Source: Trypanosoma brucei (lineage: Eukaryota). From it: a stretch of DNA of 64,000 nucleotides. Position 1 is the stretch's first letter; every line of letters starts with the position of its first letter. Made by a program: the position numbers. The stretch is taken from positions 1 through 64,000 of the forward strand of contig CP000071.1 in the NCBI GenBank assembly GCA_000002445.1, read 5' to 3'. This document shows positions 24,001 to 30,000 of this stretch, in pieces.

Positions 24001-27000
24001 CCCCCCATCCTTTAGACAAGGGAAGAAAGTATACAAAGAAATGCGTGAAAGCCAAAAAAAGCAACAACAGACATTAATACTGCTGGCAGCGACGACGCTG
24101 CTAAACGTAACAGCGGTAGCACTCGCACAGCCCAACAAGGTTTGCACGACACCGTGCGGGTGCAAGTCAAGAGTAATTAAGCGGCTGGAGGTGTACACCA
24201 CACAATTTGAACGAGCCCTAGGCCAACACCAAGCCAATCTTTTAGACTTTTCCAAGCTGATATTGGCAGCAGTAGCAGCCGACAACCAACTTAAGCGGAA
24301 GGCGGCGGCGGCACTTGCGCCAGCGGCGGCAATCCTAGCCCGTTGCACCGACCAATTAAATGCAGCAGCACCGCCTCTCACGGCAGCGGCCTATCAGGCC
24401 GGGTACACTGCGGCAACATACGCGGCGCAGCACGCATTAACGACAATGGCCGGCACACTAAAAATTGAGCCCACCGGCGGCAAGACGCTGAAGGCAGAAA
24501 CGATCACGACGAAGACGCTCGGCAGCATTCCACCAGCAATGTGCCCAACAGAAGACCAGACTGAAACAGGCGTCAAAATCACAACGGAAAGCGAAAAGGA
24601 CGAGCCAAAGCTGGCGACAATAAAACTGCACAGCAACGCACAAGCAAAATGCACGGCAACCGGGGCCAACAGCTGCCACGACAACGCTCTAGCCGACTCA
24701 GGTAATCTGGAAATTCAACTGACATACGCCATGGGACAGAAGAAAACTCCATGGACGTGGAACAGCAACACAAACGCCGACTTCCAAACGACCCACTCGG
24801 CGGAAATCAACTTGCTACGGGGCAATGAAAGCGACCTAGACAGCAAACTCACGACGCTGCGGACGGCACACGCATTGGACAGTTGCAGAAAAGCGATCGC
24901 GGAGTACAGCGCACTAAGTAGCGATCCAAACTGGGCGCTTTTTAATGCCAAAGCGCTACTAGACAACTTCGAAAGCGAGAAGCCAAGCGACATCAGCTCC
25001 GACAGATTAGAGCAAGCAACAAACAAGGCTTACGGACCCGACGGCACAAACTATAAAAACAATGTATGGCACAAAATCGAACAAACCCAGGTGCCCACAG
25101 TACAGCACGAACAGCTGAAACTTCAGCCCATAAAGAGCTTAAGCAGCACTGACGAGATCGGGGCGGCTCTGGCTAGAGTTTTCATAAACCAACAAAAAAA
25201 GGAGACCCAGACACATCAGAAGCAGGGACAAAAAGATGACGACACGAAAGAAAATGAATGCAGTAACAAAAATGGAGATAAATGCAAAGGGGATTGCGTT
25301 CTGGATGGGGACATTTGCAAACCCAAAAAGAAAGGAGAGGATGAAAACAAAGAAAAAGATGGAAAAACAGCTTCAACTTGTGCAGGGAAAGACGAGAAAA
25401 CATGCGGCACCACTCAGGGTTGCAGTTGGGAAAATAATGCTTGCAAGGATTTCTCTATTCTCCTAACCAAACAATTCGCCCTCAGCATGGTTTCTGCTGC
25501 ATTTGTAGCCTTTCTTTTCTAATTTTTCCCCCCTCAATTTTCCTTAAAAAACTTTGCTAAATTTTTGCTACTTGAAAACTTTCTGATATATTTTAACACG
25601 TAAGTTACCTGAAATAATTGAACTGTGTTTGTAACTTGACTGTCTGATTGTCTAGAAAAATTTTCTGGCAACTAAAAACTTTTTTCTCTCTTTCCCGTTG
25701 AATTTTTTTAATTTTTTAGACTTTTTAGGGTTAGGTTTTTTTAGGTTTTTTCCTCGATTTTTTTCGTTCATTTTTTTGGCTTTTAAAATTTTTTTGTTTT
25801 TTGGATTGGTTTTCATTTTTGATTTTATTTTGCATTTGAATTTTTGACCGTTTTTTTAAATCTTTAATTTATTTTTCTAAATTGTCGTTTTTTTCTTTTT
25901 AGTTTTCGAGATTTTTTAATTTTTTTGAATTTATAATTTTTTTGGCTCACTTACAATTTTTAATTTTTTTGGCCTTTGTTTTTTTTTGAACCCCAGGTGC
26001 ACAATTGCATTTATTTTCTGATTTTTCCGACTTTCGAATGCACTAATTTTTTTGCGCGTTTTTTAGCTTCGTTTTCAAAACTTTTTGGATTTTTTTTAGT
26101 TAAAAATTTTTCCTTTTTTTTGTCGCTTTTTTTCTTTTTTTCAGCAGCTGATTTTTTTTTCTTTGGCGCTCATCTTTTTAAAGCACGGGTTAGCGGGTTC
26201 GGGTTAGGGTGTTTCGGGTTAGCGGGTTCGGGTTAGGGTTAGGGTTAGGGTTAGGGTTAGGGTTAGGGTTAGGGTTAGGGTTAGCGGGTTCGGGTTAGGG
26301 TTAGGGTTAGCGGGTTAGGGTTAGGGTTAGGGTTAGGGTTAGGGTTAGGGTTAGGGTTAGGGTTAGGGTTAGGGTTAGGGTTAGGGTTAGGGCTAGGGTT
26401 AGGGTTAGGGTTAGCGGGTTCGGGTTAGGGTGTTTCGGGTTAGCGGGTTCGGGTTAGGGTTAGGGTTAGCGGGTTCGGGTTAGGGTTAGGGTTAGCGGGT
26501 TCGGGTTAGGGTTAGGGTTAGCGGGTTAGGGTTAGGGTTAGGGTTAGGGTTAGGGTTAGGGTTAGTGTTAGGGTTAGGGTTAGGGCTAGGGTTAGGGTTA
26601 GGGTTAGCGGGTTCGGGTTAGGGTGTTTCGGGTTAGCGGGTTCGGGTTAGGGTTAGGGTTAGCGGGTTCGGGTTAGGGTTAGGGTTAGCGGGTTCGGGTT
26701 AGGGTTAGGGTTAGAGGGTTGGGGTTAGGGTGTTGAGGGTTAGAGGGTTAGGGTTAGGGTGTTGAGGGTTAAGGTGTTGAGGGTTAGGGTGTTGAGGGTT
26801 AAGGTTTTTACTTTTTGGGTCATTTTTTATTTCACTTCTTATTAATTGTTTTTAAATAATTCGTCAATTTTTCATTGTAAGTGATGCAGAGGCCTTTTTT
26901 GATGCGTGAGATAAACAACATTCTACAGTATTCATCTTGGTCTTCATATTTTTCGCATGAAGCATCAACGCGGTTTGTTACGCTTTTGCTTATTTTTCTT

Positions 27001-30000
27001 TTGTCAATTTCACCTCTGCGTTTTGCGCTGCGCGAGGCTTCAGTTTTTTAAAACGCTAGCGCGTGGCAATTTCGCTAGGAGGACCAATTTGCTTTTCAGT
27101 TGCCCTAAATTTTTTTTTGTTATTTGGAACTTGCAGAATATGTAGTTTGGCAGCTAAAGCCAGCCGACATAGCAGCTTGGACAGGTCGTGCCTTGGCACA
27201 GCAACCCAACCAATGCGAGCGGAGCTTTCAAACAAATAGCTGAAGCAGCAGAAGGACAATGCATGTGCATCGCCATTCCCTAACAGATTCGGCGGAAGTC
27301 GTCAAAAATCTTAATGAAGAGTCCCATAATCACTACGGACATAAATCCACCGCGAAAAGAAAAACAAAAATCCAACAATAGAAGATCAGAATAAATGCAA
27401 ACTGAAAAACACGACTGCAGAAGAATGCCCGGAAGCTGACTGAGACTATGACACAAAAACACAGGAATGCAAACCTAAATCAGGGAGAAAAAACACAGAA
27501 GCAGGAACAAGAGAGACAATTACCGTGGTGGATTAAAATAAACACCGATACCAGAAAGCATGTAAAGCGGAAAACAAGGATGTCAAACCTAGTGACAAAG
27601 AAGTATGTAGATGAATTGACTGTGTTGATGGTACTGGAAAGCTTCTCAAGCCCGAGTGCCGCTATTCCAGCTCTCTCATCAATAAGAAATTGGCTCTGAG
27701 TATAGCTGCTGCTTTGACGGGTTTGGCTGCACTATATAATTATAAAATTATAGTACTTGATGGATTTTTTTAATTTCATGAATTTTGTGAAACTATTCTA
27801 TGTTGAGAGGATTTGTTAAACTTTTATGAAATTTAATATATTATATCACTTTTTTTAAACCTTTGCGAAATATGAAAAATAATGAATTGTTTTTAAATAA
27901 ATACGTAATTTTTATACTAAAGTGACCTCTAGGAACAAAGATGTAACAAAGTAAGGTAATGTGGTGTGAAAATGAGTGCTATTCTAATTTAGTTAATTTT
28001 TGTTTATTCTTCTTCATTTTTTAGATATCAATTGAGACTATAATAAAGATGATAACAATAGGAGTGTATAGTGAGCGTGTCTTTACTAATATTATAGTAA
28101 GGTTAGTGGTAGAGACTAAATAGATGGCAAATATAGAAGGACTTAAGACAATGACAATGGTGCAATGTGAGTGGGGCAGTGGATGAGTGAGAGAGCGCGA
28201 GGAATATTGTTATGAAAGAAAATGCAGAAAGACAAGTGGAAAAAGATGGAATATGCAAAGTTTCAAACACATTAAAGGCAATGTACATCATTACACACGA
28301 AACGAAGGGTGCGGAAATCATTAATGAAAAAGTAAACCTTACAAAAGTAGTTGAGTTACTTTTTTATCAGAAACTGACAAGGAATGAAGCAACAGAAAAA
28401 GTTGACTAAAGATCAAGTAAAGACCGGCGATAAAAGAATAAGAACACGCGTATGTGAAATAATGAAGGATCTATATTAAGTAAAGAGAGTCAATGCTGAT
28501 ACTCCACAAATTTAAGACATGTATAAAGGTCAGACATTAAGACCTCTAAAGAAACGAATAATTAACGTAAGAGTTTTGATTGATGCAAAAATAATGTATC
28601 GTATTAACAAGGTGGAAGCAGTAAGGAAAGCACTTTCTTTCTCCAAAATTTCAAGTCTTAAGAAAAAGTGAACCATATCCATACTACAAGATCTAAAAAA
28701 GAAGCACAACACCGTCCGGCTCAAAGTTAAGCAACAGCGGTATCTAGTCACTCGGAGTCATGAGGATACATTGAAACTACTAGATGGTAGAAGACTTTTA
28801 AAAACACAAATATAAAATGTCTTAGGTATGCCAAAATCTGCGGTATTTAAAAGAATGACAGAAAGAATATTCTAGTCGTGTATGAAAGAACTATATAAAT
28901 GGACACAGTATGATATAGGTTGAAAATAGCAAGAAACATTAGCAAAAAACAAAATTTACGTTAAACGTTTTTATAATTTTCACCTCTTTCTACGGTGGAA
29001 CTAAGTTTTTCACAAGTTAAACGCGTAAAAAAACGCTACTATTTAGTGTTATAATTTATATATTTATGTATATCTTTATGCCAATTTTTTTAATTTGTGT
29101 TTTTTTCTTTTATCACATGCTTTTCGCTTGTTTGTAGTTGTTCACATTTTTTATTTTGTGCTCTCAATGGCCTGAAAGCGATATAGAGATCGATCCTTCG
29201 TTGGAAATTTATATAAATGGAGCGGCGGAATTTTCATTCGCCACAGCATAGAAAGGAAGAACACCACGACCACATAACCAAATGTTGCTTTAAAACCTAA
29301 AGATCCAGACATATGACAACGATGTGAAGTCTACGAGCTTTTTTCTGGAACTTACATGGGGAGGCAACCAGATAAATCGCTGCAACGCAAAGGCGAGTGG
29401 CATAACTGTTTACTCACTTACATGATTAAAGAAGACACAAGGATTCAACCAATGTATTCTATGCTAAAAGTTGCGGCGTTTGTGTTACCAGCGGCGGCTT
29501 CCAACACACCACGGCAGACAGCGGCAAATTCACAAGCAGACGAAAACGCTCAAGAGTTCGCTCTGCTATGCGACGCCTTTCACATAGAAACAACAGAGCC
29601 CAAACTAGCGCCTGCATCAGACACCGCGAGCACAATAGCAATTAACATGGGTTCCATAAACATGTCAATTGCAGCCAGCACTTTTAAAGCCGACATCGAC
29701 CACACAAAGGATTTAAGTGACCTACAAGACAAACGTGCCGTACCCAAAGCAGGCGACGAAAAGGGCCGCTGGGAAAAATGCTATACCTTCTAGAAAAAAT
29801 GTAAGAATGCAATCGAAACAGACCCCAACAAAGCCGACTAGGCAAAGTGGTCGACGAAAAAGCTTAGAAAAGCCCAGCTCGAGAAATTACGTTTAAACGC
29901 CGAAAGGGCTTTTGAATTTTACAAAGCGGCCCAGACGACACTAAAAATCGCCCAGGCAACAAACATTCAGACACTATTAAATAACGCCGCTTTCGGAGCG

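What the first reader, a model, noticed from the sequence alone, without database searches (positions are those of the whole stretch)
25523..27150. Interstitial (TTAGGG)n tract with higher-order variant repeats, 660 bp downstream of an intact VSG
A 620-bp telomeric hexamer tract sits inside the array and is not at a sequence end. Its G-strand orientation and its spacing from the VSG at 24041..25522 copy the layout of a telomere-linked VSG (VSG, about 0.6 kb T-rich spacer, then the telomere). The tract is not a uniform run. Variant units (TTAGCGGG, TTCGGG, GTGTTTCGGG) form blocks that recur at about 26197, 26428 and 26621. The right edge decays into TGTTGAGGG/TTAAGG units. That pattern fits long interstitial residence or expansion of a compound unit. 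It does not fit fresh telomerase addition. Candidate origins are an internalised or healed telomere, a telomere-telomere fusion point, or duplicative transposition of a telomeric VSG end into an array. Trypanosome VSG switching depends on telomere biology and on subtelomeric fragility. An internal telomeric tract next to an intact VSG could therefore be a recombination or break hotspot, and could seed a new telomere.
Basis: partly seen in the sequence, partly recalled or inferred. Interest (0 to 1): 0.8.

Follow-up and report, generated by a model that had tools for sequence, protein, structure and literature searches.

The report
Internal telomere-repeat tract beside a trypanosome VSG
A 618-bp block of telomere-type repeats really does sit inside a silent surface-antigen (VSG) gene array of Trypanosoma brucei, just downstream of a complete VSG gene; it looks like an old, internalised chromosome-end flank that later grew in place by tandem duplication, which is an interesting genomic fossil but a known kind of feature.

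Summary
The window is a T. brucei brucei TREU927 VSG array; the VSG is 100% identical to XP_846884.1 on a 2.48-Mb contig, probably Tb927.8.170. A 618-bp TTAGGG-type tract lies at 26187-26804, on the + strand only. It starts 664 bp after the stop codon of the VSG at 24041-25522 and follows a 56%-T spacer. That distance is inside the 200-1590 nt range published for real expression-site telomeres.

About half the tract is canonical TTAGGG. The rest is variant units with a 29-bp period. A 53-nt variant block occurs three times at 100% identity, and a 193-nt unit is duplicated at 99%. The "decayed" right edge is an 89% copy of the same block. The tract therefore grew in place by tandem duplication, not by telomerase.

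The neighbouring cassette has the same layout, with a 20-bp relic of the same variant signature and the same downstream element, "X". Both are 97% conserved in a T. equiperdum contig, so the module is old.

- Telomere-telomere fusion is rejected: there is no CCCTAA arm.
- An assembly artefact is unlikely but cannot be excluded here.
- Hotspot or telomere-seed activity is untested.

Verdict: a genuine subtelomeric interstitial telomeric sequence, a new member of a known kind, of moderate interest.

The parts
22262..22299 (+). Short 70-bp-repeat remnant (TAA-rich) that marks the upstream edge of the VSG cassette
   Evidence: BLAST with the window's own 70-bp repeat consensus
24041..25522 (+). 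Intact VSG ORF (493 aa). It is annotated 'VSG, atypical' and is probably Tb927.8.170. Its N-terminal domain matches neither the A-type nor the B-type Pfam model.
   Evidence: ORF list, translation and Pfam. 100% identity to XP_846884.1/AAZ12818.1. The gene ID is inferred from Hall 2013 Table S1, Set_42.
25584..25599 (+). Conserved VSG 3'UTR 16-mer, TGATATATTTTAACAC
   Evidence: Exact match
25600..26186 (+). T-rich spacer (56% T), unique in the window. It contains a telomere-like seed, TTAGGGTTAGGT, at 25725-25736.
   Evidence: Composition, self-BLAST and pattern hit
26187..26804 (+). Interstitial telomere-derived tract with the G strand on +. It holds three compound units starting at 26187, 26408 and 26601, each opening with the 53-nt block GGGTTAGCGGGTTCGGGTTAGGGTGTTTCGGGTTAGCGGGTTCGGGTTAGGGT (29-bp internal period) followed by TTAGGG runs.
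26708..26804 (+). Right edge of the tract: a diverged (89%) fourth copy of the 53-nt block (TTAGAGGG, TTGGGG, TGTTGAGGG), followed by 15-nt TTAAGG/TTAGGG+TGTTGAGGG units
   Evidence: the repeat finder family D3 and unit parse
26805..27110 (+). 'X' element: T-rich, with an AAGTGATGCAG motif and GC-rich palindromic bits. It is homologous to 20860-21143, downstream of the preceding VSG.
   Evidence: BLAST, MAFFT, Smith-Waterman score 36 against shuffles 14.4±1.8, z=12
27150..27750 (+). Degenerate VSG 3' fragment (C-terminal region and GPI-signal-like end, with many stops). The next 70-bp repeat remnant follows at 28041-28101.
   Evidence: Sequence read; BLAST similarity to other VSG 3' ends in the window; 70-bp hit
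20687..20706 (+). Relic GCGGGTTATTCGGGCTAGG in the neighbouring cassette, between its T-rich VSG flank and its copy of X. It carries the same TTAGCGGG-TTCGGG-TTAGG signature as the tract.
   Evidence: The pattern GCGGGTT.{0,3}CGGG occurs outside the tract only here, on either strand. It is conserved in T. equiperdum L001.
20860..21143 (+). X element copy of the neighbouring cassette. A further partial copy lies at 21264-21355.
   Evidence: 97% conserved in T. equiperdum L001

Best explanation
This is a genuine subtelomeric interstitial telomeric sequence. It is the fossil 3' flank of a VSG cassette that was once linked to a chromosome end (VSG, 3'UTR, T-rich spacer, telomere-derived variant repeats, hexamers).

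Inferred history:
1. A telomere-linked VSG end became joined, through its telomere-derived repeats, to ordinary array DNA (element X plus a truncated VSG and a 70-bp repeat).
2. The resulting module is old and exists in two adjacent cassettes.
3. The left cassette lost all but about 20 bp of the repeats.
4. The right cassette kept them and recently re-amplified them in place. Unequal exchange or replication slippage between 53-nt variant blocks produced a 193-bp higher-order unit in about 3 copies.

Shown directly: the anatomy, the orientation, the compound-unit duplication, the shared relic and X, and their conservation in T. equiperdum.

Inferred only: the telomeric origin and the joining mechanism.

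The tract most likely has no dedicated function. By established telomere biology it would be expected to bind TbTRF, carry base J and be G-quadruplex prone. It also gives this array VSG homology to every expression-site telomere. None of this was tested here.
For: - Tract and orientation.
- Spacing of 664 nt lies within the 200-1590 nt of real expression-site telomeres (PMC2567434).
- TTAGGG-like repeats are a recognised mark of telomere-proximal VSG flanks (PMC3708902).
- Ordinary cassettes in this window have only about 250 bp between the stop codon and the next 70-bp repeat, and they lack the spacer, the tract and X.
- Compound-unit growth: 53-nt block three times at 100%, 193 nt at 99%, and a fourth block at 89%.
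- Old shared module: the variant signature GCGGGTT..CGGG occurs outside the tract only once in 128 kb of both strands, at the equivalent place in the neighbouring cassette.
- X copies are homologous at about 64% identity, z=12.
- Relic and X are 97% conserved in T. equiperdum contig L001, which is collinear with window 17130-25522.
- The protein carries both a separate AAX69688.1 accession and a chromosome-level accession. From my own knowledge of the TIGR sequencing strategy, not checked here, AAX69688.1 is probably a BAC-level record. If the locus was assembled inside one physical clone, an inter-chromosomal chimera is less likely.
Against: - No read-level or second-assembly evidence spans the tract. 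The only comparator (T. equiperdum L001) stops exactly at the VSG stop codon.
- No true telomeric VSG flank could be fetched for a direct sequence comparison of the spacer.
- The two cassettes share X and the relic, but their VSGs are unrelated and their T-rich parts are not strictly collinear. Two independent events at X-type sites remain possible.
- If the window lies in the left arm of chromosome 8 in record orientation (inferred only from the gene number), the G strand points towards the chromosome core. The tract could then not be a former end of this chromosome left in place without a rearrangement or a copy event.
Confidence: 0.6

Rival explanations
1. Recent duplicative transposition: a telomeric VSG with its spacer and the base of its telomere was copied into the array by gene conversion or break-induced replication. 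The upstream end resolved in the 70-bp repeat and the downstream end in a pre-existing short TTAGGG-like relic next to X.
For: - The cassette has a 70-bp remnant upstream and telomere repeats downstream.
- A relic of the right kind next to X exists in the neighbouring cassette, showing what such a target would look like.
- The diverged right-edge block directly abutting X could be the old resident relic.
- If the array reads away from the nearest telomere, a copy event explains the orientation better than a former end left in place.
Against: The variant signature of the neighbouring relic matches the tract's own basal units. This fits common descent of the two modules better than a new import. 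No donor is known. The scenario cannot be separated from the best explanation with the data available.
Confidence: 0.15
2. The site was never a chromosome end. A short telomere-like seed in a T-rich VSG flank (as in the neighbouring cassette) expanded locally into a minisatellite by slippage or unequal exchange.
For: - The tract is demonstrably built by in-situ tandem duplication.
- A 20-bp seed of the same signature is stably conserved without expansion in cassette A and in T. equiperdum.
- Another seed, TTAGGGTTAGGT, lies in the spacer.
Against: Runs of up to 13 perfect TTAGGG units, the exact telomeric-type layout and the spacing would all have to be coincidental. The seed itself still needs a telomeric origin.
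Confidence: 0.12
3. Assembly artefact: reads from a true VSG-bearing telomere and reads from another locus with telomere-like repeats were joined through the repeats, or the copy number of the compound unit was mis-assembled.
For: The tract (618 bp) is close to Sanger read length. Pure TTAGGG runs of 78 and 36 bp are possible false-join points. No spanning read evidence was available here.
Against: - The same idiosyncratic 53-nt block lies on both sides of every pure run, so both sides belong to one repeat family.
- The association of telomere-like sequence with X is seen independently, without a long tract, in cassette A and in a separate T. equiperdum assembly.
- The locus probably also exists as a BAC-level record, which would place it inside one physical clone (for the two accessions; the BAC attribution is my own recollection and was not checked).
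Confidence: 0.07
4. The tract is the scar of a head-to-head telomere-telomere fusion.
For: None beyond the presence of internal telomere repeats.
Against: All 66 hits are on the + strand and there is no (CCCTAA)n arm. The right flank is array DNA in the same orientation. [quoted passage not shown]
Confidence: 0.01

Closest known systems
Subtelomeric interstitial telomeric sequences (ITS) of other eukaryotes, for example the degenerate TTAGGG tracts between human subtelomeric duplicons and the internal telomere repeats between yeast X and Y' elements (from general knowledge)
   Same: Head-to-tail species-specific telomere repeats with degenerate variants. They are embedded between subtelomeric repeat modules in the same orientation as a terminal tract, and are interpreted as scars of past end-to-subtelomere exchanges.
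   Different: Here the tract is tied to a specific antigen-gene cassette and carries a very recent 193-bp higher-order amplification. Binding of TRF/RAP1 and fragility, which are documented for ITS elsewhere, are untested here.
The 3' flank of telomere-proximal VSG genes in T. brucei expression sites and minichromosomes (Aline & Stuart 1989 as cited in PMC3708902; Hertz-Fowler 2008, PMC2567434)
   Same: VSG with a conserved 3'UTR, a spacer of a few hundred nt (200-1590 nt reported; 664 here), TTAGGG-like variant repeats, then hexamers with the G strand running away from the gene.
   Different: It is not terminal. After 618 bp the sequence continues into element X, a truncated VSG, a 70-bp repeat and at least 37 kb more array. 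No ESAGs or long 70-bp tract lie upstream.
The 29-bp telomere-derived subtelomeric repeats of T. brucei (Van der Ploeg et al. 1984; Blackburn & Challoner 1984; Weiden et al. 1991). These are recalled from memory; the papers are not in the held library.
   Same: The variant block has an intrinsic 29-bp period (TTAGCGGG+TTCGGG+TTAGGG+TGTTTCGGG, and at the right edge TTAGAGGG+TTAGGG+TTAGGG+TGTTGAGGG).
   Different: Sequence identity to the published 29-mer could not be checked. Here the 29-bp units are interspersed with hexamer runs inside an array rather than lying at the base of a terminal tract.
Human 2q13-type fusion ITS (head-to-head arrays)
   Same: An internal telomere repeat that records a past chromosome-end event.
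   Different: It requires inverted (TTAGGG)n(CCCTAA)n arms, which are absent here.

Membership tests
Interstitial telomeric sequence (subtelomeric class) | Tandem array of the species' own telomere repeat | tested here: met
   54 canonical TTAGGG units plus variants; 66 dimer hits against 0.18 expected
Interstitial telomeric sequence (subtelomeric class) | Non-terminal position, with non-telomeric sequence on both sides in one continuous molecule | tested here: inconclusive
   Met in this assembly: 26 kb lies to the left and 37 kb to the right. Physical continuity could not be checked because no reads were available. Indirect support comes from the relic+X arrangement in cassette A and in T. 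equiperdum.
Interstitial telomeric sequence (subtelomeric class) | Degenerate variant units or a higher-order structure incompatible with fresh telomerase synthesis | tested here: met
   47% of bases are in variant units. The 53-nt block occurs three times at 100% and the 193-nt unit is duplicated at 99%.
Telomere-proximal VSG 3' flank | VSG with the conserved 3'UTR 16-mer, then a spacer of about 0.2-1.6 kb before the hexamer repeats | tested here: met
   16-mer at 25584; 664 nt from stop codon to tract; published range 200-1590 nt
Telomere-proximal VSG 3' flank | G-rich strand runs 5'→3' away from the VSG, with TTAGGG-like variants at the base | tested here: met
   All repeats are on the VSG coding strand. 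The left edge opens with TTAGCGGG/TTCGGG/TGTTTCGGG. Literature statement in PMC3708902.
Telomere-proximal VSG 3' flank | The repeat tract is terminal (a chromosome end) | tested here: not met
   The sequence continues into X, a VSG fragment, a 70-bp repeat and further VSGs
Telomere-proximal VSG 3' flank | Sequence similarity of the spacer to the spacers of bona fide telomeric VSGs | not testable with these tools
   No T. brucei telomeric flank could be fetched. The look-up of encoding contigs holds no TREU927 positions.
VSG expression site (bloodstream or metacyclic) | Upstream promoter, ESAGs (bloodstream form) and a 70-bp repeat tract | tested here: not met
   Only a 38-bp 70-bp-repeat remnant lies at 22262-22299. 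No ESAG-like ORF lies upstream; the preceding unit is another VSG cassette. Promoter motifs were not searched.
Head-to-head telomere fusion scar | Inverted (TTAGGG)n(CCCTAA)n arms | tested here: not met
   No minus-strand hits
29-bp telomere-derived repeat of T. brucei | 29-bp period made of hexamer-derived units | tested here: inconclusive
   A 29-bp period is present (spacings of 29 in family D3; unit parse). The published consensus was not available for comparison.

The most novel reading that the evidence does not exclude
The internal tract makes this array VSG behave like a telomere-adjacent one. It has a 70-bp remnant upstream and 618 bp of correctly oriented telomere repeats downstream. 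The cassette could therefore be copied into an expression site by break-induced replication that ends, or is healed, in the tract. After a break it could also seed a new telomere. More broadly, such tracts and their relics would be the footprints of how VSG arrays are built, by serial internalisation of telomere-linked VSG ends.
Probability: 0.12. Interest if true: 0.7.

Novelty: new member of a known kind. Interest (0 to 1): 0.4.

Why it matters
Three reasons, all conditional on follow-up.

1. A test of what makes a VSG "telomeric". [quoted passage not shown] An array VSG that carries its own telomere-type flank is a natural test of whether chromosome-end position or merely downstream telomere sequence confers that status. 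This VSG family is known to be used: an expressed mosaic VSG (AGQ49883.1) appears to combine this gene with a paralogue.

2. A record of array evolution. The tract, the neighbouring relic and the shared X element give a sequence-level record of how subtelomeric arrays may have been assembled from telomeric cassettes.

3. A practical caveat. Classifying VSGs as telomeric or minichromosomal because their contig holds TTAGGG repeats (as in PMC8445201) can be misled by such internal tracts. Telomere-protein, base J or break-mapping signals may also map here.

Tried and rejected
**Comparators**
- Exact-protein look-ups to fetch other assemblies of the locus found nothing on record. I tried the VSG, P0001, a neighbouring VSG and the glycosyltransferase-like ORF.
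- The T. equiperdum paralogue contig was retrieved, but it ends at the VSG stop codon.
- A homology search with the VSG C-terminal 102 aa returned nothing.
- A search with the ORF at 32272-33690 found only 79-83% paralogues and no orthologous contig.

**Literature**
- Nine searches (interstitial/internal/telomere-like repeats in T. brucei, 29-bp repeats, TRF ChIP-seq, gene IDs, the variant-unit strings) found no description of an internal telomere tract in T. brucei.
- Checks of reviews and genome papers also found none.
- Marcello & Barry 2007 is not held.

**Other checks**
- An Rfam scan of 20-29 kb gave nothing meaningful.
- The X-like motif hit at 60422 was judged a chance match.

**Rejected ideas**
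- Telomere-telomere fusion, rejected on orientation.
- A whole internalised expression site, rejected because there are no ESAGs and no long 70-bp tract.
- X as part of ingi/RIME, rejected because it has no similarity to the two ingi copies in the window.

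
Full report
**Source and context**

The window is a Trypanosoma brucei subtelomeric VSG array. 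ORFs with VSG A-type, B-type and C-terminal Pfam domains lie head-to-tail on the + strand. They are separated by short 70-bp-repeat remnants and 3'UTR 16-mers. The array is interrupted by two inverted ingi retroelements.

The VSG named in the finding (24041-25522, 493 aa) is 100% identical over its full length to XP_846884.1/AAZ12818.1, 'VSG, atypical' of T. b. brucei TREU927, on a 2,481,190-bp contig. From memory, that length matches chromosome 8.

Hall et al. 2013, Table S1, lists a mosaic set (Set_42) with two donors: Tb10.v4.0070 (intact, N-terminal type C) and Tb927.8.170 (atypical, type C). Three observations fit this:
- Our VSG lacks any A/B-type Pfam match.
- Its 75-77% paralogue, P0004, is an 'intact' TREU927 VSG.
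- The expressed VSG AGQ49883.1 (P0002) equals our VSG at residues 1-96 and 371-493 but follows P0004 in between.

The gene is therefore probably Tb927.8.170. That number suggests a position near the left end of chromosome 8. This is inference, not shown.

**The observation**

The tract is real and far beyond chance: 66 near-perfect TTAGGG dimers against 0.18 expected, all on the + strand. It spans 26187-26804 (618 bp). It is the only such tract in the window and lies 26 kb and 37 kb from the window ends.

Unit parsing gives 54 TTAGGG, 13 TTAGCGGG, 11 TTCGGG, 3 TGTTTCGGG, 4 TGTTGAGGG, 2 TTAGAGGG, 2 TTAAGG and 2 CTAGGG. 53% of bases are canonical and the longest perfect run is 13 units. The tract starts 664 nt after the VSG stop codon. 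Before it come the conserved 3'UTR 16-mer (25584) and a 587-nt spacer that is 56% T and unique in the window.

**Internal structure**

TRF reports a 193-bp period in 3 copies. A 53-nt block occurs at 26187, 26408 and 26601 at 100% identity: GGGTTAGCGGGTTCGGGTTAGGGTGTTTCGGGTTAGCGGGTTCGGGTTAGGGT. It has its own 29-bp period.

The interval 26330-26522 matches 26523-26715 at 99%. Copies 2 and 3 are identical over their first 111 nt or so.

The 'decayed' right edge is a fourth copy of the same block at 89% identity. Every C-containing variant has changed (TTAGCGGG→TTAGAGGG, TTCGGG→TTGGGG, TGTTTCGGG→TGTTGAGGG). It is followed by 15-nt units.

Telomerase copying a fixed template cannot generate repeated 53- or 193-nt compound units. 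Tandem duplication by unequal exchange or slippage can. The amplification is recent (≤1% divergence), whereas the fourth block is older (11%).

**Does the layout match a telomere-linked VSG?**

Yes in every testable respect except terminal position.
- In 17 sequenced bloodstream expression-site clones, the VSG-to-telomere distance was 200-1590 nt (PMC2567434).
- 'TTAGGG-like' repeats 3' of telomere-proximal VSGs are used as a diagnostic in PMC3708902, which cites Aline & Stuart 1989.
- The G strand runs away from the VSG, as at a real end.
- Ordinary cassettes in this window have about 250 nt between the stop codon and the next 70-bp repeat, with no T-rich spacer.

I could not fetch any true telomeric flank for a direct alignment.

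**What lies to the right, and the key extra finding**

The tract abuts a roughly 300-bp element that I call X (26805-27110). After X come a degenerate VSG 3' fragment (27150-27750) and the next 70-bp remnant (28041), so the array continues in the same orientation.

X is not found in ordinary cassettes. It is homologous to 20860-21143, downstream of the preceding VSG pseudogene at 18907-20445. The match is about 64% identity, with a Smith-Waterman score of 36 against 14.4±1.8 for shuffles (z=12) and 12-19 for other T-rich flanks without X similarity; 21160-21600, which holds the partial X copy, scores 26.

That neighbouring cassette has the same order of parts: VSG, 3'UTR, T-rich flank, then GCGGGTTATTCGGGCTAGG at 20687, then X, a VSG 3' fragment and a 70-bp remnant. 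The pattern GCGGGTT.{0,3}CGGG is the signature of the tract's own basal units (TTAGCGGG-TTCGGG-TTAGG). Outside the tract it occurs exactly once on either strand of the window, at this spot.

The telomere-derived-repeat/X junction is therefore a shared, old feature of two adjacent modules. One module has been reduced to a 20-bp relic. The other has been kept and re-amplified.

**Comparative evidence**

The only retrievable related locus is T. equiperdum OVI contig CZPT02000887.1 (L001, 8387 bp). It is collinear with window 17130-25522.
- It is about 97% identical through the left cassette, its relic (there GCGGGTTATTCGGGTTAGG), X, the VSG fragment and the upstream region of the VSG.
- It is 78-95% identical within the VSG.
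- Its VSG clusters with P0004, so it probably represents the Tb10.v4.0070-type paralogous locus.
- It ends exactly at the VSG stop codon, so it says nothing about the tract itself.

It does show that the relic+X arrangement is stable, and it comes from an independent assembly.

**Interpretation**

Best explanation (about 0.6): this is a genuine subtelomeric interstitial telomeric sequence, the fossil 3' flank of a once telomere-linked VSG cassette. That flank was joined through its telomere-derived repeats to array DNA. The junction was inherited by two cassettes, and the repeats were recently expanded in situ in one of them.

Rivals:
- Recent duplicative transposition of a telomeric end, resolving in a resident relic (about 0.15).
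- Expansion from a short seed with no telomeric past (about 0.12).
- Assembly artefact (about 0.07).
- Head-to-head fusion (about 0.01). This is rejected because there is no CCCTAA arm, and T. brucei is reported to lack NHEJ and end fusions.

Three points argue against an artefact. The same idiosyncratic block flanks every pure TTAGGG run. The telomere-like/X association exists without a long tract in cassette A and in T. equiperdum. The protein also has a second accession, AAX69688.1; from memory this is a BAC-level record, which would place the locus inside one physical clone. Read-level proof is still missing.

If the locus is in the left arm in record orientation, the G strand points towards the core. 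That would favour a copy or rearrangement origin over a former end left in place. This rests on an unverified coordinate.

**Function**

Nothing here shows activity. By established biology (TbTRF binds duplex TTAGGG; base J marks telomere repeats; G-rich repeats hinder replication), the tract is expected to attract telomere chromatin and to be somewhat fragile. It also gives this VSG downstream homology to every expression-site telomere.

Break-induced replication activates only telomere-adjacent VSGs when no homologous template exists (PMC12137147). The most novel reading not excluded is that the tract lets an array VSG behave like a telomeric donor, or seed a telomere after a break (probability about 0.12).

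**Novelty**

Interstitial telomeric sequences are a well-known class, and this sequence has been in the public reference genome since 2005. I found no description of internal telomere tracts in T. brucei in the held literature. Key papers (Berriman 2005, Marcello & Barry 2007, Aline & Stuart 1989) are not held, so prior mention cannot be excluded.

I rate it a new member of a known kind, with interest 0.4.

Noticed in passing
window 20687-20706 and 20860-21143 (also 21264-21355): The preceding VSG cassette carries a 20-bp relic of the tract's variant signature plus a copy (and a partial second copy) of the X element. It looks like a second, almost fully eroded telomere-type VSG flank.
   Followed up: yes
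L001 1-8387 versus window 17130-25522: T. equiperdum OVI contig CZPT02000887.1 is collinear with this part of the array and about 97% identical in the flanks. Its VSG (P0009, in the same cluster as TREU927 P0004) is only 78-95% identical along its length. The contig starts at the ingi boundary and stops at the VSG stop codon, which fits assembly breaks at repeats.
   Followed up: partly
window 24041-25522 (proteins P0001, P0002, P0004): The expressed VSG AGQ49883.1 (P0002) looks like a mosaic. Residues 1-96 and 371-493 equal this VSG, and the middle follows the paralogue P0004. This matches Set_42 of Hall et al. 2013 (donors Tb10.v4.0070 + Tb927.8.170). The 'atypical' C-terminal/GPI signal of this gene therefore appears to be usable.
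   Followed up: partly
window 12529-17269 (-) and 53505-58251 (+): Two ingi retroelements, 97% identical over 4.75 kb, lie in inverted orientation and bracket the 36-kb segment that contains the tract. They could mediate inversion of that segment.
   Followed up: no
window ~49700-52400 and ~58300-60300 (- strand): Remnants of another non-LTR retroelement (reverse transcriptase and C2H2 zinc-finger ORF fragments) lie on the minus strand. The second ingi appears to interrupt it.
   Followed up: no
window 32272-33690 (+): A 472-aa ORF related (79-83% over about 62-65% of its length) to TREU927 UDP-Gal/UDP-GlcNAc-dependent glycosyltransferases sits inside the VSG array. No identical protein is on record, so it may be an unannotated or pseudogenic copy.
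   Followed up: partly
window 24041-25240 (N-terminal domain of the VSG): The N-terminal roughly 400 aa match neither the A-type nor the B-type VSG Pfam model at E<0.001. Hall et al. class the probable gene as the rare type C.
   Followed up: no
window 18907-20445: The neighbouring A-type VSG is interrupted in TREU927 (the ORF ends at 20046, while the GPI-signal homology runs to 20445). The collinear T. equiperdum gene is called as 465 aa.
   Followed up: no
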